A DNA stretch of 15,769 nt, from contig JAZDNO010000007.1 of the NCBI GenBank assembly GCA_043799545.1, positions 1 through 15,769 of the forward strand. Reading direction: 5' to 3'. Below the pieces are notes generated by a model. That model searched no databases, was not told the DNA's origin, and saw nothing but the letters and a program-made list of their open reading frames with translations. Position 1 is the stretch's first letter, and every line of letters begins with the position of its first letter. This DNA comes from Methanobacteriota archaeon (GTDB lineage: Archaea > Thermoplasmatota > Thermoplasmata > SG8-5 > DAIRED01). Positions 1-15,734 of this stretch are shown piece after piece. The position numbers and the translations under genes were made by a program.

Positions 1-495
1 TTTGTCCGGCGCCATCAGGTTCGCGTCTATCATCGCGCTCGTCAGGTACGTCTGCCCGCCGTCGTACTGCTCGACGCTCTGGACAGTCGTGCCTGAGACA
101 TCACCCTTGAACATGGCGACCGTGTAGCCCGCATCGTCAGATGGGAAGCCAACCATGTTCCAGCCTGACTTCAGTGTTATCACGGTCGAGACGGGCTTGG
201 AGTACGTGGTTCCGCCCACGCATATCTGGCCGTCTCCGACCACCGTGACGTAGAGCCATACGCCCATCTTCGTGTCGACTGCCGTCAGGTCGTTCAAGGC
301 CGAATTCCAGGTTGTGTAGTACTGCTTCCACGGGTCGGTCAACGAGTTCGGATTGTACCACATCGCGCGGGTCCACTGGACCAAGCCAAGGCCGCCGTTC
401 CTGAGGTCTGTCAGAGCGCCCGGCATGGTTGTCGGTCCGGAGATGTTCACCGAAACGAAGTTCCAGCCGATGTGGTCCACGGTTATGTTCTGCCA
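1..495 (-). other. C-terminal two-repeat 'GWN' module of the minus-strand protease
   Basis: Internal repeat: HIGWNFVSVN (451-468) ... DPWKQYYTTWNSALNDLTAVDTKMGVWLYV ... ITLKSGWNMVGFPS (142-165) ... VEQYDGGQTYL. The module runs off the window edge. Confidence 0.7.
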
Positions 496-3400
496 CACGG
501 CGGACACGCTCGAAGCGGTCAGCGACGGGTGCACCCTGGACGGCGTGTCTGTGTTGTCGTATGCGAAGGTGAAGGTCGCAAACGGGTTGACGGTCGTTGT
601 CTGCACTCTCAGGTAGTCGACGCTGGACCCGCCCCTGGAACCGCTGTTGTAGACTCCCCAGAGGATTACGCCTCCGGAGATGTAGTCGCCCCAGTTGGAT
701 GCGATTGCCCTTGTCATCGTCTGTTCCACGTTGGCTGCGAAGGCTGTCGTTGCTCCGACCGTGTCCCACACCGACGTTGCGGAGTTGAAGGCATACATCG
801 TGCCAGTTCCGGCAACGGTGAACGAACCCTCGAAGGTCAGTGTTATGTCCGTAGCCAGGGCTGGGTTTGCCGCGGTGGCGAACGAGCACTTCACGAAGGT
901 CTCGTCTCCCACAGGCGGGTTGCCGCTAGGACCCGCCCTGATATCGTTGGATGTCGACGCTGCGGTGTAGTATGCGTCCGTGAACTCCGTGGCGCTGTTG
1001 GGCGTTGTCAGTTCAGCGTCTGCGTTGCTGTCGACCACGGTGAACCACACGTCGTGCGGCCCGCCTGCGGCCGTCGTTCCGGCTGTATCTAAGTCCTCGT
1101 ACAATGTGCCTCCGGTAACCGCGGTCACCTGTATCCACAGTTCGACATAGAACCTGCCGTTTGCGGCCATTGTCGTGCCTGCGGGCACAGTGTACTCCCA
1201 GTAGAACTCATGGTATGCGCCTGCGAAGTTCGCAATGTCCTCGTTGTCGTTGGTGGTCGTGAACTTCAGGGTTGGTACAGTGCCATTCTCGTACACCTTG
1301 GCGAACAGGAATCCGTTGGCTGTGGCCCTGTCTACCTGACCGTGTATCCAGAACTTCCACAAGCCGCCCATGTCCTGGCCGGCCACGTAGGTTCCAGATA
1401 TCCACTTCTGGCCCACCTGGTACGGTCCGACAGCGGACATCGCAACCGACGTCGATGTCTGAATCGCCACCTCGAATGGGTCGTTGTTGAGGTTCATTGC
1501 CCCTGCGAACGGGGACTGAACCTGGAACCACAGCAGCGCCTCTGCCAGGCAGCTCTTTTCAACGAGGTTGATCTCCTGCACCGGCGGGGCTCCGGAGTCG
1601 GTCGCGCGCACCACGTAGTAGTATGTCGTTCCCGGCGTCAGTGGGCCCGGGTCGGTCCATGTCAGCGTCGTGCCAACCTGGACTGCGGTCGAGGTCACGC
1701 CGGTAGCGATTGGCGAACCGAAGTTCTCGCCGCCGGGTGTCGTCGCCCTATATGCCTGATAGGTGATCGGGTATTCGCTCTGGTAGTCCTCGGCGCCAAG
1801 CCAGGTCAGCTTCAGGGTGGTTCCCGTGCCCGGGTTTGTGACTGAGACGAGCCCGTTGAATATCGGGTAGTCCGGGAAGTCGATGAAGGTCACGGTGAAC
1901 GCAGAGGGAGCTCCCCAGTTGTTCGCCGCATCCTGGCCGCGCACGTAGAATGTGTAGTCCTTGCCCAATGCAGTGCCCGTTATTCCGTATGTAGCCGGGG
2001 TCAAGGCGGCCGATGTCTGCACGCCCTCAGTCTGCGTCGGCGTCGCTTCGACCAGAACCATGTTGTACCATGTAACCTGATCGAGAGACCACTGGGCGGG
2101 AGTTGTTGCGTGTATCAGAGAGTTGCCCGTGTAAACGTCGGTGATGGTGGCGTAGAGGTTGAAGGTCTGGCCTGCGCTGATGTTCACGGGGTTCGGAGTC
2201 GCGCCGCCGTTGTAGGCCCTCGGCCCAACCGTGTCAGCTCCGCCGAGGTTGTCGAATTTGTACATGACGACGTCCCTCTCGAGCTGGTTGAGGCCGTTCG
2301 ACAGCCCCCAGTTCGTCGGCTGCGGGTTGGTCGGGTGCGTCAGGCTGATTTCGCCCTCGTTATCGTACATCGTCGTCCTGTCTCCGAAGACATAGGCGAT
2401 GTTGTCCCTTGCAAGCATCTTGTGGCATCTCCTGCCGGCGTTGTCAGCGGTGATGTTCTTGTATTTGACGGGGAAGTTGGTCGTGGTGTATCCGCTGGCG
2501 TACGCGCACCTGTAGTTGGCGTTGGCGGACATCGGCTGGGAATCGAAGAGCGCCCAGTTCCACGTGGTGTCCGCATAGGTGTCGGCCGCTCCGCCGTACC
2601 AGTACGTGTCCATGTACCCGATCCACATCGTTCCGTCCGCGGTCTTCGCGAGGCCGATTGGCAGGTTTTCCCCGGCGTAGTTGTTCCACCAGAGGGTGTT
2701 GGTGCCGTACGGTCCGAATATGTTCGACCAGGTCGTTCCGCCGTCCGTGGTGTATCGCACCCGGACCTGCATCACGTCGTAAACGTCCGTGGCGTCTCCT
2801 GGCGGCGGCTGCTCGTACCAGGCGAACCACACCTCGTTGCCGGTCGGCGGCACGTAGACGAATGGCTGGTTCTGGTCCTGGTCAGCGTTCGTGGGAAGGC
2901 CTATCGCCGTGCGGGTTCCGAAAGTGGGCGTGTCGTCCGTGGCATCCCAGCTTGTCCTCCAGACGACCCTCTGGTTGCCGTCTGTGCCGCCGGTCTGCGC
3001 GCACCTCCACACGAGCCACAGCCTGTTGCTGTTGTCCACTGTGCACATGTGCTGCCTGTCGTATCCCGTGGTAACCGCCGCTGGGGTCACGGTGCCTATC
3101 GCAGACCACGCAGTGCCGGTGGTCGACGTGAAGTAGCGGATATCTTCCGTTCCCGCAGGAGTGGAACCCAGGTCGTCCGGGATGATCGTCGGAAGCACCC
3201 ACCAGACATCCGTCGCCGCCCCTTCGGAGGTTGCGACGTCCACGCCGCTGATGCCTGCCTGGTCAAGGAAGGCCACGTCCGTATCGGTGTTGACGCACGT
3301 GAAGAGCAGGTTCTGCGTCCATGTGTCCGTCAGGTGATTGTAGTATGAGCACAGCAGCCACCAGCTACCGGCAGTGTATGCCGTGAGCACGTCGCCGTTG

Positions 3401-6330
3401 GCGCGGGCGCATACAGATATATCGTTGGGTTTCGTGAAGTAACCGGGGTCGCTGTTAGTGTCTGTTCCGGCCGGGAGAGCCCTTGGCGAGCTGGCCCTGC
3501 CGTTGTTCGGCCCGACCGCCGTCCACGTGGTTCCGCCGTCCAAGGACTTCTTCACAAAGACGCTCGACATCCCTTCAACGTTGGTGGAGTCAGCTCCGCC
3601 GTTCCAATACCTCTCGCCGCTTATGTATGCAACGTAGATTGCTTTCGTGTTTTTCTCGTAGAACACCTTCGTCGTCAACTGGTTGCCAGGCTCTTTCGCT
3701 ACAGGCTCCGGGTAAGATATCGCGGTGTCGATGACGTTCACCATCAGCGACAGCTGGTCCTTCTTCGTATTGTCTCCTGAAGACATAACGTTGAGGGTTA
3801 TGTTGAAGTCGTTCCTGGTGGTCGCCGGGGCTTTTATCGTCGCAACGCAGCCGTAGCTCGCCCCCGCCGGGAGGTTCGATACGCTCGCCGGGTTGAAGGT
3901 TATCGTCCAGCCTGCGGCTGCCACGCCGTTCGAGCTCACCACTGGGGCCGGGAATGTGAAGGAGTCCGTGACCTTCCCCTGGTTTCTCACGCTGAACGGG
4001 TATGTGATTATGCCCCCGGAGCGGATGTGATGGAAGTACTCGCCCGTCGAGGTCATCTTGACGTTGTTGTTCGTGTTCGTCTGTTTGGCAGTTCCGAGGT
4101 CTCCAGACCACACCAGGGCGAACGGGATTGGCCCGGAGTTCCAGGTGCGGATGTCGACCTTCACGGAGTACGTGCCCTTCTGCACAAACGGGGTGTTGAT
4201 GTAGACGTTCTCGAGGGTGTTCCTGTCATCGTAGCCGTCGTTGTTGTTGTCGTATCCCCAGCCTAGGCCCGTCGTCGGGTTCGGGTAAGCCCAGCTGTCC
4301 TTGAATATGTTGCCGTGGTACTGGGTTCCGTCCGGAGCCGTGACAATCAGGTCAAGGTCGTTCCGGATGGTGACCGCGCTGCCGACCGCTCCCGGGCTCG
4401 GGTCCGCCCAGACGAGCGTAATCCTCAATGGCACCCTGGTGTTTACGACGGGGATGTTGAAGTTGTACTCAGAGGTGCTCGCCGTGAGCAGTGAGTTACG
4501 GTCCTCGAAGTAGTCCCAGCTCCTCGGCGCGGTCGGGAACAGCGAGTTCCTCACGTTTACCTGCCCCCAGCCCTGAGCGTAGCTTGGAACGCCTTCGCCG
4601 ACGTCGTCCGCGCCGTTGATCAATGTCGCCTTCATGAGCGACATCGACGGGCTCGCTATGCCCCTTATTTCATTGTAGTATTGTCTAACAAGCATCGCGC
4701 ATCCGGCGACTACCGGTGTCGCGCAGGACGTGCCTCCGAACCACGTGTAGACCCCGTTGGGCCCGTATGGAACGTAGTCCGCCGTTGGCGCGCCCGCCGA
4801 GCGAACAGAGTAAACGAACGTCCCTGGCGCGGCTATGTCCGGCTTTATCCTCTCGTCGTCCGCCGGTCCGCGGCTGCTCCAGCTGACTATGCCGTGTCCA
4901 CCGGAGGTCTCCGTTCCGTTCATCGGGGCGTCGTTGTTCGACGCCGCGACGCACAGGCCGTTCTTCATGGCCCATCCGACACCGTACGGTCCGGGTATGT
5001 CGCCGGGCGTGTACTGCGGCGTGTCGCCGGAGTTGTGCGCGGCGTAGCACGGGATTGCGTCCCAGGCGGTTCCCCAGATGTATGCGTCGATTCCAGCCGA
5101 TTCGCTTCCGTACGTTCCATCAGCAGAGTTCCATCCGGAGCTCGATGAGAATACGCGGAACCGGACTGTCGTGTCGGTTGTGTAAGTGTACTGCGTGTCG
5201 TGGTAGAGTTCCGCGTCCTGGGTGGACGTGGCGGACATATAAATCTTGGCCTCAGGTGCGGTCCCGGGGTTCCCCCTGTCGTACCTGTTCAGCTCGTTCG
5301 GGGGCAGAAGCTCTCCATGGACGCTCAGCCAGTTGTATCCGTTGCCTGCCGCTGCGCCAGTGCACCCCGTTCCGTGTCCGTCGGTATCGCCGCCGCCGCC
5401 CGCGACTATGCGGTTGACGCCCGCCTGCGGACCAGTCGAGAAGTCCTGGCGCGTCCCGTCAAGCCCCGAGTCGGATATTCCCAGGCCCTGGTACGTGTTG
5501 GTGCCAGCGCCGGCGGTGTACCCGGTCAATGGGACCGAAAGGCCGCTCCTGTCGACATCCCACGCATCGGCTGCGTTTAGAAGCTCGGTGCTCTGCTTGT
5601 TAAAATACTTCACTGTCGGGCTCTCGTCGGTGACGAGGGCAATCTCCTGGATGTTAAGAATCTGCGGCATTATTGACATGTCGATGTAGCAGTAGATGAA
5701 GGGGTTGTCCCTCTTCTCCGGGTTTGTCAAGCTGTCCTGCTCAATCTTGACTTCCCTTGCACCCAGTGCCGCAAGCTTGTCGGCGACGTCAATGACGCTC
5801 TCGCCCTTGAAAAGCCAGACGCACCAGTAGTGCTCCCCGGTCCAATCCTGGTTCTTCGCCGGCAGCTTGTAGCCAGGCTCCACCAGGCCGACCCACTGAA
5901 CGAGTGGGGAAGATTCGACCTTCGCCTTCGTGTTGCCGTTCATCTTGACAACGTAGGCGTTCTCGTGAACGTATTCGTTGTCGAGAACCTTGGCACCAAA
6001 CGAGCGGATGTGGTCCCTCATGCTGTCCGTGACGGTCTCCTTGAACTGCACGATGTAGTACACATCCTGTTTCGGGTCAATCCCGCTCGCTTTGTATCCT
6101 GCTTTCACAGCTGGCTCGCCTTTCGCCGTGTCGAAATCACCGTTCCGCAAAAACAGCCTGGTGTCAGGCGCGTTGTTTGCTCCCACGACCGGAAGGTCGT
6201 CGGTCAGGACGACGTTGCTATTGTCGTGTGTCCCGAGTCCGATGGTAGCGATCAAGCCAGACAAGGCCATCGCCAATGCGAGCGCGATAGCCAAAACTTG
6301 GCCCACCCTTCGATTTTCACCCTTGCCCAT
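1..6330 (-). CDS. Giant secreted multidomain S8 (subtilisin-like, Kp43-type) serine protease, at least 2110 aa, 3'-truncated by the window edge
   Basis: I read the minus frame codon by codon from ATG at 6330 to position 1 and found no stop. An in-frame TGA lies just upstream (6343-6345) and GTGAGGAGG precedes the ATG. The N-terminus MGKGENRRVGQVLAIALALAMALSGLIATIGLG is a signal peptide. The prodomain contains YYIVQF. Catalytic motifs are GISDSGLDG (D287), DGHGTGCTG (H319), YAAHNSG (N433), SSRGPADDERIKPDIAAPG and FGGTSCATPVVAGCAMLVRQYY (S535). These are followed by PSMSLMKATLINGADD, QGWGQVN, ITLVWADP and NDLDLIVTAPDGTQYHGN, typical of Kp43-like subtilases. Confidence 0.96.
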   Translation of the reverse strand, partial: MGKGENRRVGQVLAIALALAMALSGLIATIGLGTHDNSNVVLTDDLPVVGANNAPDTRLFLRNGDFDTAKGEPAVKAGYKASGIDPKQDVYYIVQFKETVTDSMRDHIRSFGAKVLDNEYVHENAYVVKMNGNTKAKVESSPLVQWVGLVEPGYKLPAKNQDWTGEHYWCVWLFKGESVIDVADKLAALGAREVKIEQDSLTNPEKRDNPFIYCYIDMSIMPQILNIQEIALVTDESPTVKYFNKQSTELLNAADAWDVDRSGLSVPLTGYTAGAGTNTYQGLGISDSGLDGTRQDFSTGPQAGVNRIVAGGGGDTDGHGTGCTGAAAGNGYNWLSVHGELLPPNELNRYDRGNPGTAPEAKIYMSATSTQDAELYHDTQYTYTTDTTVRFRVFSSSSGWNSADGTYGSESAGIDAYIWGTAWDAIPCYAAHNSGDTPQYTPGDIPGPYGVGWAMKNGLCVAASNNDAPMNGTETSGGHGIVSWSSRGPADDERIKPDIAAPGTFVYSVRSAGAPTADYVPYGPNGVYTWFGGTSCATPVVAGCAMLVRQYYNEIRGIASPSMSLMKATLINGADDVGEGVPSYAQGWGQVNVRNSLFPTAPRSWDYFEDRNSLLTASTSEYNFNIPVVNTRVPLRITLVWADPSPGAVGSAVTIRNDLDLIVTAPDGTQYHGNIFKDSWAYPNPTTGLGWGYDNNNDGYDDRNTLENVYINTPFVQKGTYSVKVDIRTWNSGPIPFALVWSGDLGTAKQTNTNNNVKMTSTGEYFHHIRSGGIITYPFSVRNQGKVTDSFTFPAPVVSSNGVAAAGWTITFNPASVSNLPAGASYGCVATIKAPATTRNDFNITLNVMSSGDNTKKDQLSLMVNVIDTAISYPEPVAKEPGNQLTTKVFYEKNTKAIYVAYISGERYWNGGADSTNVEGMSSVFVKKSLDGGTTWTAVGPNNGRASSPRALPAGTDTNSDPGYFTKPNDISVCARANGDVLTAYTAGSWWLLCSYYNHLTDTWTQNLLFTCVNTDTDVAFLDQAGISGVDVATSEGAATDVWWVLPTIIPDDLGSTPAGTEDIRYFTSTTGTAWSAIGTVTPAAVTTGYDRQHMCTVDNSNRLWLVWRCAQTGGTDGNQRVVWRTSWDATDDTPTFGTRTAIGLPTNADQDQNQPFVYVPPTGNEVWFAWYEQPPPGDATDVYDVMQVRVRYTTDGGTTWSNIFGPYGTNTLWWNNYAGENLPIGLAKTADGTMWIGYMDTYWYGGAADTYADTTWNWALFDSQPMSANANYRCAYASGYTTTNFPVKYKNITADNAGRRCHKMLARDNIAYVFGDRTTMYDNEGEISLTHPTNPQPTNWGLSNGLNQLERDVVMYKFDNLGGADTVGPRAYNGGATPNPVNISAGQTFNLYATITDVYTGNSLIHATTPAQWSLDQVTWYNMVLVEATPTQTEGVQTSAALTPATYGITGTALGKDYTFYVRGQDAANNWGAPSAFTVTFIDFPDYPIFNGLVSVTNPGTGTTLKLTWLGAEDYQSEYPITYQAYRATTPGGENFGSPIATGVTSTAVQVGTTLTWTDPGPLTPGTTYYYVVRATDSGAPPVQEINLVEKSCLAEALLWFQVQSPFAGAMNLNNDPFEVAIQTSTSVAMSAVGPYQVGQKWISGTYVAGQDMGGLWKFWIHGQVDRATANGFLFAKVYENGTVPTLKFTTTNDNEDIANFAGAYHEFYWEYTVPAGTTMAANGRFYVELWIQVTAVTGGTLYEDLDTAGTTAAGGPHDVWFTVVDSNADAELTTPNSATEFTDAYYTAASTSNDIRAGPSGNPPVGDETFVKCSFATAANPALATDITLTFEGSFTVAGTGTMYAFNSATSVWDTVGATTAFAANVEQTMTRAIASNWGDYISGGVILWGVYNSGSRGGSSVDYLRVQTTTVNPFATFTFAYDNTDTPSRVHPSLTASSVSAVWQNITVDHIGWNFVSVNISGPTTMPGALTDLRNGGLGLVQWTRAMWYNPNSLTDPWKQYYTTWNSALNDLTAVDTKMGVWLYVTVVGDGQICVGGTTYSKPVSTVITLKSGWNMVGFPSDDAGYTVAMFKGDVSGTTVQSVEQYDGGQTYLTSAMIDANLMAPDK
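1540..1870 (-). other. Fibronectin type III domain within the minus-strand protease
   Basis: TLKLTWLGAED...ITYQAYRATTPGGENFGSP...TWTDPGPLTPGTTYYYVVRATD matches the FN3 pattern (early Trp, L-x-PGT-x-Y-x-Y-x-V-x-A). Confidence 0.85.
2250..3720 (-). other. BNR/Asp-box (sialidase-like) beta-propeller region within the minus-strand protease
   Basis: Asp-box motifs KSLDGGTTW (3523-3546) and YTTDGGTTW (2728-2751), a degenerate FTSTTGTAW (~3106-3132), and repeated x-W-x-x-W/Y blade strands (RLWLVWR, EVWFAWYE, TMWIGYMD). Boundaries are approximate. Confidence 0.7.
3730..4050 (-). other. Ig-like beta-sandwich (NEW3/CARDB-like) after the protease's jelly-roll domain
   Basis: ITYPFSVRNQGKVTDSFTF...GWTITFNPASVSNLPAGASYGCVATIKAPA...ITLNVMSSGDNTKKDQLSLMVNV. 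The family assignment is by motif resemblance only. Confidence 0.6.
4090..5560 (-). other. S8 catalytic domain plus C-terminal PPC/P-domain-like jelly-roll of the minus-strand protease
   Basis: Catalytic codons are Asp 5470-5472, His 5374-5376, oxyanion Asn 5032-5034 and Ser 4726-4728. The D-to-H spacing is 32 aa, as in subtilisin BPN'. Confidence 0.93.
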
Positions 6331-6336
6331 TTTTTT

Positions 6337-6346
6337 CCCTCCTCAC
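6337..6346 (-). promoter_or_regulatory. Shine-Dalgarno-like site for the minus-strand protease
   Basis: The minus strand reads GTGAGGAGGGAAAAAA-ATG. Confidence 0.7.
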
Positions 6347-6442
6347 ATTCTCGTCTCGAAAATTTTATCAACTCAGGTGACATTTCACTGCATTGACAAA
6401 TCCTGAATGATTAATTTGAGACAACTAGCGATATGATGATAC

Positions 6443-6460
6443 TATTATAATTAGTTTTAT
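6443..6460 (-). promoter_or_regulatory. Candidate BRE/TATA for the minus-strand protease
   Basis: The minus strand reads ATAAAACTAA-TTATAATA about 110 nt upstream of the ATG. Other AT-rich candidates exist in the spacer. Confidence 0.4.
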
Positions 6461-6480
6461 GTTTCCGTATATATCTCATT

Positions 6481-6504
6481 ATAAAAACATATAAATATGT
6501 CTTT
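6481..6504. promoter_or_regulatory. Candidate BRE/TATA (ATATAAAT) for the plus-strand gene, embedded in a dyad-symmetric element
   Basis: ATAAAAAC-ATATAAATATGTCTTT. The arms ACATAT/ATATGT are a perfect inverted repeat, and the minus strand reads TTTATATG. Confidence 0.55.
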
Positions 6505-6573
6505 TCCACTCTCCAACCATCGTCCTCAATTCCATCATGCCCATTATAATGTTGGGGGGGATGTAGACTCGAA

Positions 6574-6581
6574 TGAGGGAG
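6574..6581 (+). promoter_or_regulatory. Shine-Dalgarno-like site for the 2767-aa gene
   Basis: TGAGGGAG, 4 nt before ATG 6586. Confidence 0.6.
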
Positions 6582-6585
6582 AAAT

Positions 6586-9500
6586 ATGCTCGAATTGAAG
6601 AATAGATACGCCGCGATGATTTTGGCCTGCCTGGTAATCGTCTCTGGATTATCGATTGGCATCGGCCACTCATCGACCCCGTCAAACGACCGCACGACAG
6701 AATCCGATGTGCTGCACCCCTTGGACCGCCCTCAACAGGTTGCCGGGATTGATATGGACCAAGAAACGGCTATTGAAACTATGCCCAAGTCGGCCCTGTC
6801 GCTTCCCAGCGGTGAGTTCGTGACCGTCGTGGTTGCCACGAAGGATGCCGGCGAGTTGGCGAGATTCCTCTCGAAATACAGTTACTCAGGCAATATCGGC
6901 TCCAGGAGCGATGGTGCTGGCTCTTTGGCCACGCCTGTCTTGACCGTGCCTTCCGAATCGATAGAGGGGATATCCTCCCTTCCGTCCACTATGGGTGTTT
7001 ACGAATACCAGCCGAAGGTAAAGCAACCGGTCCTCCCTCCGTCCAAAACCGACTTTGTCGGGCCGGTGGGAGGCATCAACAGCGTAGATTTCGATCAAGG
7101 CATCGTGCAGCACCACAACGCGGACGATGCCTGGGCAGCGGGCATCACCGGAAGCGGCGTCAAAGTTGCAGTCGCCGATTCAGGTGTGGACTTTGCCACG
7201 CCGGACCTGTTCGGGTCGCAGGCGACCTTCGACGTTTCCAAGGTGAAAGCGGATATCCTCGCAAATAAATCATACTTAAAAGAATACGACGGGTGGCCCA
7301 TCGCCTTCGACGAATCGTCCATGGAGAACTACCTTGCGAAGAAGGGCGATGCGACGGGAACCTGGTACGCGGACACCTCTGCGAGACGCACCCCCATCCC
7401 TCTCAAGGTTTTTGACAGCACGAAAACCATCACTGTCGACGGAAACCCTGCTGATTGGAGCAGCGCGGACCTTGTGGCTTCGGACCCGAGCGGAGACATG
7501 ACGGACGTCCGCTACGACGTCACCTCACTCTACGCATTGAGGAACTCCGCGACCGCCATCTGGAACTTCGGATTTGACGTGATGGGGACCACGAATGTGA
7601 ATGTCACATACAATTTGGCGATAGACACAGACATGGCTCCGGGCCAGGGGGCGACGAAAGACCCTTTGGGCCGCCCTGTGCGGTTCGCGGACGGGTGCCT
7701 CCCGGATAAAATGATCACGGTCACGCATACCCCCTCCGATACCTTCGAGAACGCATGGTTCTATCAGTGGAACGGGGCGGAATGGGACATGACCGCCAGT
7801 TATTCGTTTGACTTGCTGTTCTTTGCAGAATATGCCTACAATCCTGCGCTCAAATTCGCAGAGTTCGGCGTGATAGGCGATCAATCAGGCGGTTCGTTCA
7901 GGGACCAATTCTCGTTGCCCACGGACAAGATACAGGTAATCCTGTACACAGCAAGCGAAACCAGCCATGCGCAGGACACCGTTCCCTCGGACCCTGCCGT
8001 TATATATACAACGCCGGATTTGACCGCCTCAATAACGAAATTGTCGACGCCCGTTACCTTATCCCCATACCCGGCGAGCTACATCCAATACGGCACGAAC
8101 ATTTACAACGTGACGGGCATAACAAGCATATCCGGGATTTACCACATCGGATACCACCCGGACAAGAACATGCAAACGGAATTGTTCTCCGGCAAGGCCA
8201 TGGCAATCCTCGCTGTCGATGCCGTCGTGAGCGGGGAATACGACACGGTATACGTTGATATGTCTGGAGATGTTGGCTTTTCACCCGGGGATATGGACGC
8301 AAGCTTCTCAAACGAAAAGCCCTGCACCCGGGACGACCCCGTTGCGTACTACGACAGCTACAACTTCGCGAGTGACACCGCGGACTACAGCAAGTGGAAC
8401 ACCGGTGACGGGATTCCAGACCTGTCGGGAGGGATGATATACTTCATCGGCAACTCAACGGAAGTGAAGAATGAATGGGTGGTAACTCCCACGGAGAACG
8501 GCACCAACACCGCCAAGCTGGCACATGGCAACATCTCAACTCCGGACGAGTGCGTGCTTTACAAGAACGGCGCGAAATGGGAATTCACCGAAGTCACAGG
8601 AGAGATGGTCATCGTGGCCGCAGGCGGCGAGAAAAAGGCTAAACTTGACTACAAGAACGTGGCGACGGGAACTTTAGTGCTTTTCGGGAGCAACATTTCA
8701 GTGAAGAACGATTTGCTCTTCGAGCAGGGCTCCACTGTATCCAACACGATATTGCTGAAGCGCAAAGGCGTTACCGCGTTCAACACGTTCGACCTTTACT
8801 ACAAGCCAAAGAACGAGTCGCAGCCCCGACGGGAGATGGCCGGCTCCGAATACCAGATCCTTTACGACATGGGCATAAAAACCTGGAAGCTAATATTAAC
8901 AGGTACCTTCTTTGAAGGTGATCAGTACTTTGCATACTACAACTTCACAGGCACGATGGTCGATGGCGTGGATTATGACAAAGACCTATCCAAGGGAGAC
9001 ATCTTACTCACGGAGCCTCTGATAGCGAGGACGATCATCACTGCGGATTACTGGTGGAGGCCTTACGTCGTGGATTTATTGAGCGGCAATCTCACATTCA
9101 CCTTCTATCTGAAAATAGGGGACAACATCACGGCGACATACCAGTATGGCACCACCCCAATACCGTACTCAGACTCTTATTGCAAGCGCTTGGGGCTCGA
9201 CAACTATTACCCGGGGAAGGGCAATGTCGTCGCGCTCATAGGGGAGTTTGACAGGACAGTGGACGAGAATTTAGAAGATATAGGCGAACTCCACGGTACG
9301 CTGTGCGCGTCCGCGATTGCCGGAGGGAGCTCTAGCTCGCAACTGTACGTCAACTCCGTCTTCAAGGGCGCATTCAATCAGCCAAAAGGCATCGCGCCGG
9401 ATTGCGACATCATCGCGATAGCCAACATATACAAAACCGAGGGGTACGAATTCTGGTACTTCTCAGTCGAAGGCTACGACGGGGCGCCAGGCACCGGCGA

Positions 9501-12500
9501 CGAGGCGAACATCGTCAGCAACAGCTTCGGCCAGAGCAAGACCTACAACGACGGCTGGGATTTCGAGTCTCGTCTCATCGACTATCTGACCATGGACTAC
9601 GCGAAGGGCCAGACGGTGTTCACCGTATCGGCAGGCAACGAAGGTTACGGTTATGGAACCGTTACAGCTCCAGCATCGTCGCCAGGCGTCATATCGGCCG
9701 GTGCGGCCACGGACATGTACTACCGGTTGCTTCTCAACGAAGACGGCGGAGAGAATCCCATGTTCGGCGATGTCTCGCCGTTCTCCGGGCGCGGACCAGG
9801 CGGGATGGGGACGCCGGACCCGGACGTCATAGCCATCGGCGACAAAGCGGTTGGGAGCTTGCCCCTGTACCTGGCCAACTCCGACGGGAAGCGGGCCATC
9901 TCGATATGGGAGGGCACCGACATCGCAGCCCCGATTGCAGCCGGTACGTTGGCGTTGGTATACCAGGCGTACGCCCAAAAACACAGCGGGAAATACCCCA
10001 CCGCCCTCGAGGCTCATGCCATACTGAAGTCGACCGCCGACAACATCAACTACGACATCTTCAGCCAGGGCGCTGGATTCATCAACGCCGACAGGGCGAC
10101 AAACGCAGCCCTCGGGACCGACGGTCTCGTCGTCTCGCCATCCTCGTGGGTGCCTGGAACGTACCAGGGCGCGAAGACGGACGTATTCACAAACGTCATG
10201 CAGCCCGGAACGAGCAACATCACAACAATCCAGGTCGCCAACTGCGACCTGGTTTCGGATGCGACAGCGAACGTCCACGACGACATCTTCAAGAAGATCG
10301 GCACTTACGAATACACATGGGGTACTGGCGGCCAGCTGAACAACAAGAACGAGTCCTGGGAGGTCGTCAACCGAGACAGCCTGGGTCAGAACGCGAGCTA
10401 CTGGGACCAAGCGCAGATGGTCAAGGTGACCGCACACATCAACTCCATGGACATGGATCCCTCTAACGACCTATATCCCGACTCTGGATACTACATGCGG
10501 TTGTTCAATTGGGAGGATCTGAACGGAAACGGGGTGCCTGACCAGGACTGGACGGACGGCACCGGCTACACGCACGTCGCCCACGGCGAGAGGAACCAGA
10601 TTGCATTCAGCGAAGGCCGGAACATCATGGAGACCATCGTCCACGACCCGAACCAGAGGATCGCCACGGGATTGCTCGTCAGCATTATACCGGATGGTTC
10701 CAACATCCAATGGCTCAACTTCACAGTCAGCGTAGACTTCTACATGCGCGTAGACTGGAGCTGGTTGAACGTACAGAATTCCCTGATCGTCCCCGCGGGA
10801 ACGACGAGGGGTCTTCCTTTGACAATCACGGTCCCGAGCAATGCCGGTATAGGGACATACGAAGGGGCAGTCTACCTCGACCACGACGCGCAGACCGTTT
10901 CAGACGAAGTGGTCTACAACGCATCCATGCACCCAACGTACACGGAAAAAGTGTACAACACGACGAACCGCATCGCCAATCTGTCTCAGGGGGATTTCAC
11001 AGGGCTGGAACTCTACAAGCACAAGGCCGGCTCTTTCAACTCCCTCACCAACAAAAGCGTGTTCAACAACGATAGCGTAGCATATAGCCCAACTGGAACC
11101 GAGGTCACTCCTTGGGGATTTTTCCTACCGCTACCGTATGGAGAGATAATCAATACTACTTTTCTGGCGTTCTTCATACCTGGCGATACCGTGTATGATG
11201 CATTGGAAATTGCGGACTTTACCGTAGATCTCACGACAGGATACGTAGAATTCACGGATCCCAATTGGGACGACCCGCTAAACAACAACGGGATATCGGA
11301 ATTTTATGCGTGGTACGAATATGCAGACGTCACCTCGGCATACACGCCAGATGGAAGCGAGGTCGCGCCTTGGGGATTCTACCTTCCTCTTCCTTATGGG
11401 GAGATTACAAACTACACTTATCTGGCATACAATATACCTGGCGACAACATATACAACGCAACAAGTATCGCTAATTATACCGTGAACCTCACAACAGGAT
11501 TTGTGGAGTTTACAAGCGCTTTGTGGAACGACCCGCTCAATAACTATGGCATAACAGAATTTTATGCATGGTACGAATATGGCGTCAGTGCATTGCTGCC
11601 TTCCGTCAACTATACGTTTTATCCGGCAAACGGGACAATAATCTTGAGTGCTGCTGACGCTCTACAGCCCGGCAATTACCTCACTGCTGTGAGGTGGAAC
11701 ATACCAACAAGCGCTTTGGGCCACGGAAATGTCATTCTCGGAACCTGCATCGTCTCGGCCAACGGCATAGCGCTCAACATCAACCAATTCTCAATAACCC
11801 CGTCCACGGGCGTCATAACATTCAGCAACCTCGATCACGAAACGACGCTAATAACTGCGACCTACAATTACTACGCGCACACCGTAACAATCCCCGTCGC
11901 AGTCACCGTAAGCACCGTTGGCAGCGACTTCCGTCTCGGAGGACCGACAACGATATCGCAGGACCTTTACAACAACAGCCAAATGGGCGGAGGCGCTTGG
12001 GACCTGACCGACGGTGGGGACTGGCGCATATACTACGTCTATATCCCCCAGCAGGGTCTTTTCGTCAAGGGAGACGGGTACAAGCTAATAGTCGATGTCT
12101 CATGGCGTGCGATACCAACCGATATTGAGATATTCATTTACGGGGCGGGCGAGGGGGATGAATTCAGCACCTCGAACCCGGACAGGTACGGGCCGTACAC
12201 GCTTGCTGACGTCGGCAAGAGCCAGATGCCGTCCGGCTCCCAAGGGTTCTACACTACGACGGGCGGGAACGAGGAAATAATCACTGGCCAGCTTAAGGGC
12301 GGTTTGAACCTAATCGTTTTGCATTGCACCAACATCAACGGCACCAAGACGAGCGAAGAGTTCTCGGGGGTCGGCGGATGGATTTCCACTAGCTCCGCAA
12401 AGGTCGAGGCCCGCACGAGGGAAATAAAAGGCAACGTCTCGATGACCATGAGAAGCAGCATGAGCTGGCCCTTAGGAAGCAAGGCTTCCATTCTTGGACC

Positions 12501-14889
12501 AGCATCGGCCGAGAAATTCTACGACCAGGAGGTCTGGCAGGAGAGACAGAAGGACATGGACGCCCAAGACGCTTCAGTCACATTCAGAGATTACATGTAC
12601 ACTTTGCGTTTCTCCAGCTACCAGAAAGTCATCACGATAGCCAAGGCTTCCACCTTGGAAGTGAAGATATGGGGCGACCCCAGCGACGACCTGGACCTGG
12701 CGGTCTTCTATGATGTGAATGAGAACGGGGTCTGTGACGACCCGAAGGAGGTCGTCAGGAGCGGCGATTACGGCATCGGAGTGGAGACCTATTGCGACTG
12801 GTCCATGGGCGGATATGCCGGATGCGCGGACGGAGACAGCAACGAGGGCCTCAAGCTAATCCTCCCGCCTGACGGGCAGTATATCATCGCAGTCTATGGC
12901 TGGGGTGTAAAGACAGGAGGGTTGGAGGGCGAAGGGAGCCCGGCCCACTTTGACATGGATATCAGCATGATAGTCGCGGGCGTGGAGGGATACGAGCTAT
13001 CCGGCGGTCCAGGAGCGGACCTGGATTCCAAGAAGAGCAGCTACATGTCGAACGAGTCCACAACTGCTTACTTGCCCCAGACATTCACGGTGCTGTGGAA
13101 CTTCCCAGCCGATGCCACAGACGGAGAATACAGCGGCATGATGTACCTCGGGCCCGCGAACGTGCAGGATGGAATACTCGCGATTCTGGTCAATGTAATA
13201 CTGGACAGGGAAGCGCCGGTCCTGAAGGACCCGACCCCGGCGGAGTACACCATCACAAACAATCCCACGCCCTGGATAACTTGCAACCTGGAGGACGTGG
13301 AGCGCGGTGAAATCGACGTGAATTCCATCGCCATATCCGTGGATGGCACCGACGTGACGCACATCGCGAACATCGCAGTGCCGTTCGTCGCGGATGGCGG
13401 CGGCACAGGCTATCCCAGGGGATCGATTGTTTACACCCCCTACAAGCCGTTGACTGACGGAGGCCACCGTGTGGACTTCTCCTTCAGCGACTGGGCCGGC
13501 AACGTCGAGACCGACACCTGGCTGTTCACCGTCGACAGGTTCGCCCCTTCGATAAAGATACTGTCGCCAAACAAAGAAACGACTGTCACTGGCGAAAACG
13601 AAATATCGATTCTCGGGATGACGGACAGCAACGCCGAAGTCAGCATCTATTGCGGGGCGGTACAAGTTGTCCCGAAGCTTCAGCCCAATGGCACATTTAC
13701 GGCCACCGCGCCCCTTGTCGAGGGCGAGAACGAGGTGAGGGTCATCTCGAAGGATAAAGCGGGAAACGAGGGAGTCGAAACCTTCTCCGTCATCTGGGAC
13801 AACAGCGTACCGAGGATAACATCCGCGATTTCCTCTGTGGGTTCAATGACAAATGCAGAAACGGCGGTCATTTCCGGCAAGGTCAGCCAGGACGGCACGC
13901 TGGCCATCAACGGCAACATGGTCAATGTCATGAAGGGAGACCTGTCATTCGAAAGCCTCGTGGCGTTGTCTGAAGGACAAAACGTGATAAGACTCGACTT
14001 CGTTGATCTCAAGGGATTCGAGACTACCACATGGAAGAACATCACCAGGGACACCATCGCGCCTGAGGTGACCCTCAGGTCGCCCACGGGATATGTCTAC
14101 AGCAGAACATACAACGTGACTGGTTCGGCAGACGGCGCCTCAAGCGTATTCGTCAACGGCAAGACGGCGATTCTTACCGGAGACAACTTCGGCAAGGAAG
14201 TCGTGCTGAGCAACGGAGCGAACACCATCGTGGTCGAGTGCCGGGATTCTGCGGGAAACTCCGAGTTCCGCACCATTTCCGTGAGCTACCTGCCGACCCC
14301 GACAAACTGGGGGGCTATCGGGCTGATGATCGGACTGCTCGCGATTGGCCTAATCGTAGGAGTCGTCATGTGGATGTTCTTAGGTCCCAAGGGCGAGAAG
14401 GCTCCAGTCCCTGGGGAGGAAGGCGCGATAGCGACCGGGGAAGAGCCTGCGTCGGAGACCGCGGCGGATTCTGGAGACGTGCCGCCCGAGGGAGCGGATG
14501 AAGTGCCGCCCGTAGAACCCGAAACGGAGGCAATCCAACAAATCGAGGAGCCCGCGCTGGATGACGGACAAAAGGTCGCCGAGGCCGAGGAAATCGAGTT
14601 CCCGACAGAGAGTGCGACAACCGACCTGCCGCCCATACCCGCGGAGGAATCGATGCCGGAGGAGCTGCCTGCTCCCGAAATCGCACCGGAACCGGCCGCA
14701 GAGGCCGCCCCAGCGCCGGAGCCTGCGCCAGCCCCCGAACCGAAGCCGGCGCCCGAGCCTGCACCGCCCGTGCAGCCGAAGGCGTCCCTGGCGAACGAGG
14801 AGAAGATTGCCCGTCTGAAGAAGGCGCTCGAAAGCGGCAAGATATCCCAGGAGATGTACGACCTGAACCTGAAGAAGCTCCAGGGCTAG
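6586..14889 (+). CDS. Giant membrane-anchored S8 subtilase homologue (pyrolysin-like large-insert type), predicted catalytically inactive (nucleophile Ser->Asp), 2767 aa
   Basis: The signal peptide is MLELKNRYAAMILACLVIVSGLSIG. S8 motifs are VAVADSGVD (D198, 7177-7179), LHGTLCASAIAG (H903, 9292-9294), IVSNSFG, VSAGNEG (N1018), FSGRGP, PDVIAIG, WEGTDIAAPIAAGTLAL (Asp1112 at the Ser position, 9919-9921) and QGAGFINA. The C-terminus has Ig-like repeats, a TM helix and an acidic tail. Confidence 0.96.
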   Translation: MLELKNRYAAMILACLVIVSGLSIGIGHSSTPSNDRTTESDVLHPLDRPQQVAGIDMDQETAIETMPKSALSLPSGEFVTVVVATKDAGELARFLSKYSYSGNIGSRSDGAGSLATPVLTVPSESIEGISSLPSTMGVYEYQPKVKQPVLPPSKTDFVGPVGGINSVDFDQGIVQHHNADDAWAAGITGSGVKVAVADSGVDFATPDLFGSQATFDVSKVKADILANKSYLKEYDGWPIAFDESSMENYLAKKGDATGTWYADTSARRTPIPLKVFDSTKTITVDGNPADWSSADLVASDPSGDMTDVRYDVTSLYALRNSATAIWNFGFDVMGTTNVNVTYNLAIDTDMAPGQGATKDPLGRPVRFADGCLPDKMITVTHTPSDTFENAWFYQWNGAEWDMTASYSFDLLFFAEYAYNPALKFAEFGVIGDQSGGSFRDQFSLPTDKIQVILYTASETSHAQDTVPSDPAVIYTTPDLTASITKLSTPVTLSPYPASYIQYGTNIYNVTGITSISGIYHIGYHPDKNMQTELFSGKAMAILAVDAVVSGEYDTVYVDMSGDVGFSPGDMDASFSNEKPCTRDDPVAYYDSYNFASDTADYSKWNTGDGIPDLSGGMIYFIGNSTEVKNEWVVTPTENGTNTAKLAHGNISTPDECVLYKNGAKWEFTEVTGEMVIVAAGGEKKAKLDYKNVATGTLVLFGSNISVKNDLLFEQGSTVSNTILLKRKGVTAFNTFDLYYKPKNESQPRREMAGSEYQILYDMGIKTWKLILTGTFFEGDQYFAYYNFTGTMVDGVDYDKDLSKGDILLTEPLIARTIITADYWWRPYVVDLLSGNLTFTFYLKIGDNITATYQYGTTPIPYSDSYCKRLGLDNYYPGKGNVVALIGEFDRTVDENLEDIGELHGTLCASAIAGGSSSSQLYVNSVFKGAFNQPKGIAPDCDIIAIANIYKTEGYEFWYFSVEGYDGAPGTGDEANIVSNSFGQSKTYNDGWDFESRLIDYLTMDYAKGQTVFTVSAGNEGYGYGTVTAPASSPGVISAGAATDMYYRLLLNEDGGENPMFGDVSPFSGRGPGGMGTPDPDVIAIGDKAVGSLPLYLANSDGKRAISIWEGTDIAAPIAAGTLALVYQAYAQKHSGKYPTALEAHAILKSTADNINYDIFSQGAGFINADRATNAALGTDGLVVSPSSWVPGTYQGAKTDVFTNVMQPGTSNITTIQVANCDLVSDATANVHDDIFKKIGTYEYTWGTGGQLNNKNESWEVVNRDSLGQNASYWDQAQMVKVTAHINSMDMDPSNDLYPDSGYYMRLFNWEDLNGNGVPDQDWTDGTGYTHVAHGERNQIAFSEGRNIMETIVHDPNQRIATGLLVSIIPDGSNIQWLNFTVSVDFYMRVDWSWLNVQNSLIVPAGTTRGLPLTITVPSNAGIGTYEGAVYLDHDAQTVSDEVVYNASMHPTYTEKVYNTTNRIANLSQGDFTGLELYKHKAGSFNSLTNKSVFNNDSVAYSPTGTEVTPWGFFLPLPYGEIINTTFLAFFIPGDTVYDALEIADFTVDLTTGYVEFTDPNWDDPLNNNGISEFYAWYEYADVTSAYTPDGSEVAPWGFYLPLPYGEITNYTYLAYNIPGDNIYNATSIANYTVNLTTGFVEFTSALWNDPLNNYGITEFYAWYEYGVSALLPSVNYTFYPANGTIILSAADALQPGNYLTAVRWNIPTSALGHGNVILGTCIVSANGIALNINQFSITPSTGVITFSNLDHETTLITATYNYYAHTVTIPVAVTVSTVGSDFRLGGPTTISQDLYNNSQMGGGAWDLTDGGDWRIYYVYIPQQGLFVKGDGYKLIVDVSWRAIPTDIEIFIYGAGEGDEFSTSNPDRYGPYTLADVGKSQMPSGSQGFYTTTGGNEEIITGQLKGGLNLIVLHCTNINGTKTSEEFSGVGGWISTSSAKVEARTREIKGNVSMTMRSSMSWPLGSKASILGPASAEKFYDQEVWQERQKDMDAQDASVTFRDYMYTLRFSSYQKVITIAKASTLEVKIWGDPSDDLDLAVFYDVNENGVCDDPKEVVRSGDYGIGVETYCDWSMGGYAGCADGDSNEGLKLILPPDGQYIIAVYGWGVKTGGLEGEGSPAHFDMDISMIVAGVEGYELSGGPGADLDSKKSSYMSNESTTAYLPQTFTVLWNFPADATDGEYSGMMYLGPANVQDGILAILVNVILDREAPVLKDPTPAEYTITNNPTPWITCNLEDVERGEIDVNSIAISVDGTDVTHIANIAVPFVADGGGTGYPRGSIVYTPYKPLTDGGHRVDFSFSDWAGNVETDTWLFTVDRFAPSIKILSPNKETTVTGENEISILGMTDSNAEVSIYCGAVQVVPKLQPNGTFTATAPLVEGENEVRVISKDKAGNEGVETFSVIWDNSVPRITSAISSVGSMTNAETAVISGKVSQDGTLAINGNMVNVMKGDLSFESLVALSEGQNVIRLDFVDLKGFETTTWKNITRDTIAPEVTLRSPTGYVYSRTYNVTGSADGASSVFVNGKTAILTGDNFGKEVVLSNGANTIVVECRDSAGNSEFRTISVSYLPTPTNWGAIGLMIGLLAIGLIVGVVMWMFLGPKGEKAPVPGEEGAIATGEEPASETAADSGDVPPEGADEVPPVEPETEAIQQIEEPALDDGQKVAEAEEIEFPTESATTDLPPIPAEESMPEELPAPEIAPEPAAEAAPAPEPAPAPEPKPAPEPAPPVQPKASLANEEKIARLKKALESGKISQEMYDLNLKKLQG
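7426..8061 (+). other. DOMON/CBM9-like beta-sandwich inserted within the S8 domain
   Basis: ITVDGNPADWSSADLVASDPSGD...DVTSLYALRN...WNFGFDV...YNLAIDTD...G...FAEFGV...F has the 'iDG...dW...D..gD...Di..l.......l.f......y.l.iDtD' pattern of DOMON-like ligand-binding domains. The assignment is by motif resemblance. Confidence 0.6.
11080..11580 (+). repeat. Intragenic tandem duplication, 258-nt (86-aa) period, two 81-aa copies (11080-11322 and 11338-11580)
   Basis: AYSPTGTEVTPWGFFLPLPYGEI...EFYAWYEY versus AYTPDGSEVAPWGFYLPLPYGEI...EFYAWYEY. Hand alignment is ungapped with 56/81 identical residues. Confidence 0.95.
13204..14292 (+). repeat. Four tandem Ig-like stalk domains (glucodextranase domain-B-like)
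   Basis: Each begins D-x-x-x-P: DREAP (13204), DRFAP (13534), DNSVP (13798), DTIAP (14050). Shared features are L-x-x-G-x-N/H-x-[IV] and D-x-x-G-N/F motifs. Confidence 0.8.
14308..14382 (+). other. C-terminal transmembrane helix
   Basis: WGAIGLMIGLLAIGLIVGVVMWMFL, 25 uncharged residues followed by GPKGEK. Confidence 0.9.
14668..14769 (+). repeat. Pro/Ala/Glu low-complexity repeats (PAPEP-like) in the cytoplasmic tail
   Basis: PAPEIAPEPAAEAAPAPEPAPAPEPKPAPEPAPP. Confidence 0.9.
14794..14886 (+). other. SHOCT-like short C-terminal helical domain
   Basis: NEEKIARLKKALESGKISQEMYDLNLKKLQG fits the SHOCT pattern (L-x-x-L-x-x-G-x-I-[ST]-x-E-x-[FY]). Confidence 0.75.
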
Positions 14890-15526: not shown

Positions 15527-15556
15527 CGTATCGCTTCGAGTGTAAAGGTTGACGGC

Positions 15557-15570
15557 ATTTAACGGTTGCT
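15557..15570 (-). promoter_or_regulatory. Candidate BRE/TATA for nac
   Basis: The minus strand reads AGCAACCG-TTAAAT about 31 nt upstream of ATG 15526, consistent with a nearly leaderless transcript. Confidence 0.5.
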
Positions 15571-15734
15571 GTCGAGCCATACTAGAGGTTGAAAAATGGG
15601 TTATTGATAATGCAGCCTGGCCCACGGGCCATGTACGGTCGAGGCGAGCTGGCGAGGGCGAGCCTTTTGGGATACCATACAACTTTTCCGCGAGCCCGAG
15701 CCGGAGAGCCTAGGCAGGAAAAGGGGTTGAGCGG

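What the first reader, a model, noticed from the sequence alone, without database searches (positions are those of the whole stretch)
9910..9936. Catalytic serine replaced by aspartate (GTDIAAP) in an otherwise intact 8.3-kb subtilase gene
Seen: GAG GGC ACC GAC ATC GCA GCC CCG, where the canonical motif is G-T-S-M-A-x-P. Any Ser codon needs at least 2 substitutions to become GAC, so a single base-call error is unlikely. The ORF is uninterrupted and Asp, His and the oxyanion Asn are retained, arguing against decay. Established: S8 catalysis requires this Ser. Inference: a maintained pseudoprotease that binds or traps peptides, keeps its propeptide, or uses the D198/H903/D1112 cluster for metal binding or altered chemistry.
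Basis: partly seen in the sequence, partly recalled or inferred. Interest (0 to 1): 0.78.

Follow-up and report, generated by a model that had tools for sequence, protein, structure and literature searches.

The report
Archaeal surface subtilase lacking catalytic serine
A giant membrane-anchored surface protein of an uncultured Thermoplasmata archaeon has a subtilisin-type protease domain that is canonical except that its catalytic serine is an aspartate; it belongs to an apparently undescribed archaeal lineage of serine-less subtilases encoded back-to-back with a real protease gene, so it most likely binds rather than cuts.

Summary
ORF 6586-14889 (+) encodes 2767 aa with a split S8 domain: D198, a ~700-aa insert, H903, N1018, then GTDIAAP, with D1112 (GAC, 9919-9921) aligned to the catalytic Ser of solved subtilases.

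It is not a lone accident. Among about 250 relatives from Thermoplasmata, roughly 30% lack Ser, and one deep clade carries Asp.

Three lines place this gene in that clade:
- its stalk phylogeny;
- several residues flanking the Asp;
- its gene context. I found 21 divergent pairs of an intact P0002-type S8 protease gene with a giant split-S8 gene, and 19 of the giants lack Ser.

In one Asp-type subclade the head domain is the most constrained part of the protein (dN/dS 0.14).

This copy is unusual in changing almost nothing else. It keeps 63 of 65 columns conserved in Ser-type relatives, including the oxyanion Asn, the Pro and the SxSxG cleft.

No orthologue was found in the collections and genomes searched, so I cannot tell whether its Asp is old or recent.

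Best reading: a maintained, non-proteolytic head that works with the neighbouring protease. Metal binding or Asp-based chemistry remains untested. The scan noted the same kind of Asp-for-Ser protein in another genome (e1-4501489).

The parts
6586..14889 (+). Gene for the 2767-aa giant surface protein P0001. Layout: signal peptide, propeptide, split S8 head, long beta-rich stalk, Ig-like domains, TM anchor, cytoplasmic tail.
   Evidence: Uninterrupted ORF. About 250 homologues of 1500-3700 aa, mostly from Thermoplasmata.
6817..7005 (+). Propeptide-like beta-alpha-beta-beta-alpha-beta module (aa ~78-140), followed by a low-confidence linker (aa ~151-170).
   Evidence: AF2 model residues 44-106 have pLDDT above 90; the linker 117-136 is below 50. 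Pfam I9 was not detected. The similar segment is kept in the degenerate paralogue P0255.
7099..7359 (+). N-terminal part of the S8 domain, with catalytic Asp D198 (7177-7179) in VAVADSGVD.
7360..9255 (+). Beta-rich insert of about 630 aa between the catalytic Asp and His. Relatives carry 200-1580 aa here, often a WD40 propeller.
   Evidence: Asp-to-His distance is 705 aa. The model is mostly strands. No Pfam hit in this copy. The second half resembles the inserts of P0126, P0087, P0124 and P0130.
9262..10077 (+). C-terminal part of the S8 domain: H903 (9292-9294), SNSFG cleft strand (aa 978-982), oxyanion N1018 (9637-9639), and GTDIAAP with D1112 (9919-9921).
   Evidence: Pfam PF00082; PDB alignments; 63 of 65 Ser-type-conserved columns kept.
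9919..9921 (+). GAC = Asp1112 at the position of the catalytic Ser.
10123..13395 (+). Stalk (aa ~1180-2270), including two tandem ~86-aa repeats (11080-11580).
   Evidence: Most similar to the stalks of Ser-less relatives (36-45% identity against 29-31% for Ser-type). In the stalk tree it is sister to P0128 inside the Ser-less clade.
13417..14286 (+). Ig-like domains (Big_13 and Glucodextran_B x3).
   Evidence: Pfam.
14308..14385 (+). C-terminal transmembrane helix (aa 2575-2600).
   Evidence: Hydrophobic 26-mer read directly.
14386..14889 (+). Pro/Glu/Ala-rich cytoplasmic tail ending in a conserved amphipathic motif (14797-14886).
   Evidence: The tail is shared with P0216, P0131, P0128 and P0255.
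1..6330 (-). Divergently transcribed partner gene P0002. It is another large S8 protease with an intact triad (SDSGLD, DGHGTG, AAHNSG, GGTSCATP) and is cut off at the contig end.
   Evidence: The same pairing was found in 20 further places.
6331..6585 (.). AT-rich 255-bp divergent intergenic region shared by the two genes.

Best explanation
P0001 is a membrane-anchored giant surface protein. Its subtilase head is a maintained, non-proteolytic (or at most vestigially active) pseudo-subtilase. It belongs to a Thermoplasmata lineage in which the catalytic Ser is dispensable and is often replaced by Asp, and in which the gene sits head-to-head with a gene for an intact S8 protease. Shown here: Asp at the Ser position; every other catalytic and cleft residue intact; membership of the Ser-less lineage by stalk phylogeny and synteny; strong purifying selection on Asp-type heads in a subclade of that lineage. 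Inferred: the head still folds around its propeptide, which it cannot cleave itself, and uses the preserved substrate cleft and the Asp-His-Asp cluster to bind a peptide, protein or cation. It would act together with the neighbouring active protease, for example by capturing or presenting substrate, or by docking or regulating that protease, in the way the CspA and CspC pseudoproteases work with CspB.
For: D1112 aligns to the catalytic Ser. Among 250 relatives the Asp/His/Asn/Ser/Pro columns read DHNSP in 160, DHDDA in about 21, DHNDA in 5 and DHNHA in 3, with many fully degenerate. In the stalk tree the query is sister to P0128 (99*) and lies inside a set of 31 Ser-less rows (97*); excluding it gives AU p=0.034. 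Local residues E1109, I1113, A1115 and I1117 are Asp-clade-like. Twenty-one divergent pairs of a P0002-type S8 gene and a giant split-S8 gene were found in 16 genomes. All 19 partner proteases read, plus P0002 and P0254, keep GTS and Asn, and keep Asp and His where the fragment covers them. The giants carry Ser in 2, Asp in 6, Glu in 3, His in 2 and another residue in 8. Direct adjacency was verified by ORF maps in two genomes and twice in the own genome. In Asp-type P0078, P0072 and P0068 the head C-half has dN/dS 0.14 at dS 0.26, against 0.36 for the stalk, and the Asp codon varies synonymously (GAT, GAT, GAC). The 8.3-kb ORF is intact, and the head keeps 63 of 65 Ser-type-conserved columns. 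Known S8 pseudoproteases that partner an active S8 exist: CspC and CspA with CspB (PMC7200643).
Against: No orthologue closer than about 50% identity was found, so neither conservation of this Asp nor dN/dS on this gene could be measured. By head sequence the gene groups with Ser-type proteins (97* set of 36 Ser-type rows). Joining it to the Asp clade costs 15.7 lnL units (AU p=0.2: allowed but not favoured). The Asp could therefore be an independent and recent change in a lineage that had kept Ser, as P0041 does inside the clade. The stalk AU group was named after the tree was seen. Binding, lack of activity and coupling to P0002 are all inferences. No atomic coordinates were available to check the geometry of the site.
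Confidence: 0.58

Rival explanations
1. Recent loss of function. A fully active surface subtilase lost its nucleophile not long ago (AGC to GAC through Gly or Asn). The rest of the site looks perfect only because there has been no time to decay, so the Asp has no role of its own.
For: The head keeps 97% of Ser-type-conserved columns, above the mean for Ser-type proteins (93%) and far above Ser-less ones (74%). The head tree places it among Ser-type rows. Ser is retained by at least one member inside the Ser-less clade (P0041, DHNSA), so late losses do occur. No orthologue shows that the Asp is conserved.
Against: The path to GAC needs two substitutions through an already inactive intermediate, and it ends on the residue favoured across the clade. 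Four flanking residues have also shifted towards the Asp-clade consensus. The gene already sits in the paired context in which 19 of 21 giants lack Ser. The query's terminal branch in the head tree is long (0.6 substitutions per site), yet no other catalytic or cleft residue has changed.
Confidence: 0.17
2. Altered chemistry. The Asp198-His903-Asp1112 cluster, with the oxyanion Asn and substrate cleft intact, is a working active site that uses Asp as nucleophile or general base. This would parallel the Asp-His-Asp triads of haloalkane dehalogenases and epoxide hydrolases in the alpha/beta-hydrolase fold (own knowledge).
For: Every residue of the machinery except the nucleophile is kept in this copy. 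In the deep Asp clade, defined by the tree rather than by this residue, 26 of 36 rows carry Asp at the Ser column, and the commonest five-column state keeps the catalytic Asp and His (DHDDA). One Asp-type subclade has head dN/dS 0.14. Together these point to a functional site.
Against: No subtilisin-fold enzyme with an Asp nucleophile turned up in the literature searches. Most Asp-clade members have lost the SxSxG cleft strand, the Pro and the oxyanion Asn, and sister lineages tolerate Ala, Gly, Trp or His at this position. That pattern fits a structural or binding role better than catalysis.
Confidence: 0.09
3. Cation site or salt bridge. The Asp replaces Ser to neutralise or bridge the buried His (Asp-His-Asp), or to bind a cation. 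This would stabilise a head that no longer needs to turn over substrate, so its role is purely structural.
For: Acidic residues recur at this position: Asp in 6 and Glu in 3 of the 21 paired giants. On the tree the Asp state needs at least 5 changes. In 25 of 36 Asp-clade rows the oxyanion Asn has also become Asp.
Against: No structure, coordinates or metal prediction could be obtained. This copy keeps Asn, so a four-ligand acidic site is not formed here.
Confidence: 0.12
4. Sequencing, assembly or binning artefact at codon 1112.
For: The sequence is a metagenome-assembled contig, and reads could not be inspected.
Against: Two adjacent bases would have to be wrong. Neighbouring residues are co-adapted. 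The frame is intact for 8.3 kb.
Confidence: 0.03

Closest known systems
CspC and CspA pseudoproteases of Clostridioides difficile, which work with the active subtilase CspB (PMC7200643; PMC6636752)
   Same: They have an S8 fold with substituted triad residues, do not autoprocess their prodomain, are maintained by selection, and are genetically and functionally tied to an active S8 protease (CspBA fusion, CspC adjacent). Here the tie is a conserved divergent gene pair.
   Different: They are bacterial, soluble spore proteins of about 550 aa. Their substitutions are Thr and Gly (CspC) or variable (CspA), not Asp. No sequence-level subfamily link was seen: the best PDB hits were SubHal, Vpr and BprB, not Csp. 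The archaeal protein is a 2767-aa membrane-anchored surface protein with a split catalytic domain.
Pyrolysin-group S8A subtilases and tripeptidyl peptidase II, which have a large insert between the catalytic Asp and His (own knowledge; Thermococcus homologues P0037, P0067, P0088)
   Same: The triad order is Asp-His-Ser with an insert of at least 200 aa between Asp and His, followed by long C-terminal beta-rich extensions. The proteins are homologous (36-46% identity in the catalytic half).
   Different: Those proteins keep Ser and are active proteases. The insert here is about 700 aa.
Asp-type Thermoplasmata pseudo-subtilases with a nested WD40 propeller (earlier scan note e1-4501489; P0068, P0072, P0078, P0081 and P0092 here)
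   Same: Same giant architecture, homologous stalk, TM anchor and tail, Asp at the Ser position, and divergent pairing with a P0002-type protease (for example G020:C98).
   Different: Those have also changed Asn to Asp, Pro to Ala and the SxSxG strand (state DHDDA). This copy keeps all of them (state DHNDP, seen only once among the 250 relatives), and Pfam finds no WD40 in its insert.
Sedolisins (S53) (own knowledge)
   Same: They have a subtilisin fold with a re-engineered, more acidic active site, with Asp in place of the oxyanion Asn as in the DHDDA clade.
   Different: Sedolisins keep a Ser nucleophile (Ser-Glu-Asp). This protein keeps His and Asn and lacks Ser.

Membership tests
Peptidase S8 (subtilase), as a homologue | Sequence and fold homology to the S8 domain | tested here: met
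   PF00082 E 4e-26 over aa 893-1164. phmmer hits to 5fax, 8jmw and 3ti9. AF2 model (pLDDT 78, pTM 0.75) gives Foldseek hits to Vpr, BprB, KP-43 and Tk-subtilisin at E 1e-11 to 1e-9.
Peptidase S8 (subtilase), as an active peptidase | Catalytic Asp in a D(S/T)G motif | tested here: met
   D198 in ADSGVD.
Peptidase S8 (subtilase), as an active peptidase | Catalytic His in an HGT motif | tested here: met
   H903.
Peptidase S8 (subtilase), as an active peptidase | Oxyanion-hole Asn | tested here: met
   N1018 in AGNEG; Asn in 162 of 162 Ser-type rows.
Peptidase S8 (subtilase), as an active peptidase | Nucleophile Ser in GTSxxxP | tested here: not met
   D1112 in GTDIAAP. By this criterion the protein is a non-peptidase homologue.
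Peptidase S8 (subtilase), as an active peptidase | N-terminal propeptide removed by autoprocessing | not testable with these tools
   A confident beta-alpha-beta-beta-alpha-beta module at aa 78-140 is modelled. Its cleavage cannot be assessed.
Paired Ser-less giant split-S8 lineage of Thermoplasmata | Stalk homologous to, and nested within, the Ser-less clade | tested here: met
   Sister to P0128 (99*), inside 31 Ser-less rows (97*); AU p=0.034 against exclusion.
Paired Ser-less giant split-S8 lineage of Thermoplasmata | Divergent adjacency to a P0002-type S8 protease with an intact triad | tested here: met
   Window 1-6330 (-) and 6586-14889 (+). Twenty further pairs were found.
Paired Ser-less giant split-S8 lineage of Thermoplasmata | Head domain grouping with the Ser-less clade | tested here: inconclusive
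   The free tree puts it with Ser-type rows (97*). The constrained tree is not rejected (AU p=0.2).
Paired Ser-less giant split-S8 lineage of Thermoplasmata | Companion changes: Asn to Asp, Pro to Ala, loss of SxSxG | tested here: not met
   All are retained in the ancestral state.
Csp-type pseudoproteases | Sequence membership in the clostridial Csp subfamily | tested here: not met
   No Csp chain appeared among PDB sequence hits at E<=0.001. The resemblance is functional and by analogy only.

The most novel reading that the evidence does not exclude
The Asp198-His903-Asp1112 cluster, with its intact oxyanion Asn and peptide-binding cleft, is a working catalytic site. That would make it a subtilisin-fold hydrolase with an aspartate in place of the serine nucleophile, and this minimally changed copy would capture the first step of that switch.
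Probability: 0.09. Interest if true: 0.85.

Novelty: new variant of a known kind. Interest (0 to 1): 0.52.

Why it matters
Three reasons.

1. Extracellular S8A 'peptidases' are counted by homology to infer protein degradation by uncultured archaea. One study found that such gene counts do not predict which archaea actually degrade protein (PMC9123169). Here about 30% of the giant Thermoplasmata S8 homologues collected lack the nucleophile, and the own genome's two giants of this family are both Ser-less. Homology-based counts will therefore overstate proteolytic capacity.

2. A conserved archaeal gene pair of an active protease and a pseudo-protease would be an independent parallel to the clostridial CspB/CspA/CspC system.

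3. This copy is the least-changed member found: only the nucleophile is replaced. That makes it the cleanest construct for asking what an Asp at this position does in a subtilisin fold.

Tried and rejected
**Search for orthologues**
- A word-indexed search for short fragments over aa 1030-1230 gave only three hits at 42-48% identity.
- A metagenome scan with six peptide patterns, including IWEGTDIA, gave 71 pattern matches but no relative.
- Sixty related genomes gave nothing above 50% identity.
- The same-genus genome G001 (84% complete) has only 36-41% matches to the N-terminal 900 aa.
- Because of this, dN/dS and conservation of this particular Asp could not be measured.

**Phylogeny**
- The AU test of the head did not decide between independent and shared origin of the Asp (p=0.2).

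**Domains and structure**
- Pfam found nothing in the propeptide or the insert.
- The AF2 model could not be used to measure Asp-His distances, or to look for a substitute Ser, because no coordinates are returned.

**Not run**
- Complex prediction: the head exceeds the size limit and cannot be trimmed without joining pieces.
- The idea that the head was swapped in by recombination from a Ser-type gene was considered. It is less parsimonious, because it would require re-evolving Asp and the Asp-clade-like flanking residues, but it is not excluded.

**Literature**
- Three searches found no description of this archaeal family.

Full report
**Observation.** The window is a whole 15,769-bp contig (C14) of a 2.06-Mb, 94%-complete assembly. 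Homologue names and earlier notes place it in an uncultured Thermoplasmata archaeon. ORF 6586-14889 (+) is open for 2767 codons. At 9910-9933 it reads E-G-T-D-I-A-A-P, and the Asp codon GAC is at 9919-9921.

Pfam finds Peptidase_S8 over aa 893-1164. HMMER alignments to three solved subtilases put D1112 exactly opposite the Ser of GTSMA(T/S/A)P. D198 (ADSGVD), H903 (HGT) and N1018 (AGNEG) are all present, with D198 and H903 separated by about 700 residues.

An AF2 model of aa 35-1234 (pLDDT 78, pTM 0.75) matches subtilases by Foldseek. D1112 lies at the start of the long helix (model 1077-1098), which is where subtilisin carries its Ser (own knowledge).

**How unusual it is.**
- I collected about 250 homologues, nearly all giant proteins from Thermoplasmata and some from Thermococcus, and read five columns: Asp, His, Asn, Ser and the Pro after Ser.
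- 160 read DHNSP. About 21 read DHDDA, 5 DHNDA and 3 DHNHA, and some 40 are fully degenerate.
- The query reads DHNDP, a state seen only once. Ser is therefore invariant among the canonical members (162 of 162), but loss of Ser, often to Asp, is a recurrent feature of the family.
- The own genome's only paralogue of this family (contig C23) is completely degenerate.

**Where this copy belongs.** The signals are mixed, and I report them as such.
- *Head sequence: Ser-type.* Identity to Ser-type proteins is 48-53%. An IQ-TREE tree places the query in a 97* set of 36 Ser-type rows. It keeps 63 of 65 columns that are at least 85% conserved in Ser-type relatives. That is 97%, against a mean of 93% for Ser-type proteins and 74% for Ser-less ones. 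The only departures are S1112D and N1095Y.
- *Head sequence: join with the Asp clade not rejected.* Forcing the query to join the Asp clade is not rejected (AU p=0.2). The residues around the Asp (E1109, I1113, A1115, I1117) and the stretch 880-899 are Asp-clade-like.
- *Stalk.* For aa 1560-2270 the best matches are all Ser-less proteins (36-45% identity, against 29-31% for Ser-type). The stalk tree puts the query sister to P0128 (99*) inside 31 Ser-less rows (97*). Excluding it gives AU p=0.034, a group I named after seeing the tree.

**Gene context.**
- Upstream and divergent lies P0002 (window 1-6330, minus strand). It is a different large S8 protease with an intact triad.
- The own genome repeats this arrangement on C23, where the intact protease P0254 sits beside the degenerate giant P0255.
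- Comparing the places of P0001-like and P0002-like matches in 60 related genomes gave 19 more same-contig, divergent pairs with the matched segments 3-9 kb apart.
- ORF maps of two of them show direct adjacency, with gaps of 356 bp and 151 bp.
- All 19 partner proteases keep GTS..P. Eighteen of them also keep the oxyanion Asn (the contig-end fragment L073 aligns Gly there), and Asp and His are present wherever the fetched piece covers them.
- Across the 21 pairs the giants read Ser 2, Asp 6 (including the query), Glu 3, His 2 and other 8.
- Of 11 Ser-type giants that were the best hit of their genome, only one has such a neighbour on its contig. The Ser-type P0124 sits among housekeeping genes.
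- The query's nearest stalk relative, P0128, also has a divergent upstream S8 gene, with two genes in between.
- Contigs are often short and related genomes are not independent, so I present this as a pattern and not as a statistical test.

**Are Ser-less heads maintained?** This could be measured only where close relatives exist. For the Asp-type trio P0078, P0072 and P0068, the head C-half has dN/dS 0.14 at dS 0.26. The N-terminal part plus insert gives 0.24 and the stalk 0.36. More distant pairs give 0.05-0.07 near saturation. The Asp codon differs synonymously among the three (GAT, GAT, GAC). In that subclade the head without Ser is therefore the most constrained part of the protein. For the query itself no orthologue was found.

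**Mechanism.**
- Shown: the nucleophile is absent, while the general base, its Asp partner, the oxyanion Asn, the SxSxG cleft strand and the propeptide-like module are present.
- Established (PMC7200643): S8 proteases lacking triad residues do not autoprocess. Pseudo-subtilases can be maintained as ligand-binding regulators of an active S8 partner.
- Inferred: this head is a binding module that keeps its propeptide unless it is cut in trans, and it works with the co-regulated neighbouring protease at the cell surface.
- The preference for acidic residues suggests that the Asp pairs with the buried His or binds a cation. Catalysis by Asp cannot be excluded, but it is disfavoured because sister lineages tolerate Ala, Gly, Trp and His at this position.
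- Relatives use AGC or AGT for this Ser (9 of 10). GAC was therefore reached through an inactive Gly or Asn intermediate. That fits either relaxed need for Ser followed by selection for Asp, or plain loss.

**What remains open.** I cannot tell whether the Asp in this gene is old or recent. If it is old, the near-perfect site has been held by selection without Ser, which would be remarkable. If it is recent, the site simply has not yet drifted. I give the maintained pseudo-protease reading 0.58, recent loss 0.17, a structural or cation site 0.12, altered chemistry 0.09 and artefact 0.03.

**Novelty.** S8 pseudoproteases are known (Csp). No paper describing this archaeal family, its Asp-type site or its pairing with an active protease was found. 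The scan had already met the Asp-type proteins elsewhere. This report adds the conserved protease/pseudo-protease gene pair, the selection estimate, and the fact that this copy is the minimal-change member.

Noticed in passing
window 1-1083 (-) and L042 1-1080 (-): The last ~350 residues of P0002 are about 90% identical to those of its paralogue P0254 on contig C23, while their catalytic parts are only 27% identical. Both contigs end inside this shared module, so the repeat probably broke the assembly. It also suggests gene conversion or a swappable C-terminal module.
   Followed up: partly
window 9868-9870: Y1095 replaces an Asn that is 91% conserved in Ser-type relatives. It is the only other departure from the 65 conserved columns. 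Asp-clade members have His or Ala here.
   Followed up: no
window 11080-11580 (+): Two tandem repeats of about 86 aa in the stalk (AYSPTGTEV...FYAWYEY and AYTPDGSEV...FYAWYEY), roughly 60% identical by eye.
   Followed up: no
window 14797-14886 (+): The cytoplasmic tail ends in a conserved amphipathic motif (EEKIARLKKALESGKISQEMYDLNLKKLQG). The motif recurs at the C-terminus of P0255, and BLAST alignments to P0216, P0128 and P0003 also reach the tail's last residues. It looks SHOCT-like from memory, but Pfam gave no hit.
   Followed up: partly
window 7360-9255 (+): The ~630-aa insert in the catalytic domain has no Pfam match, although relatives carry WD40 propellers at this place. The model is all-beta, with a low-confidence stretch at aa ~710-790. 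Another first-reader note on this window (e1-5720184) reads part of it as nested beta-modules.
   Followed up: no
window 15128-15682 (-): Downstream gene encodes an archaeal nascent-polypeptide-associated complex protein (NAC domain plus UBA).
   Followed up: yes
L076 4491-7732: In the locus of P0128, the nearest stalk relative, two genes (a 519-aa protein with a weak lipocalin-like hit, and a UbiA prenyltransferase) lie between the divergent S8 gene and the giant gene.
   Followed up: partly
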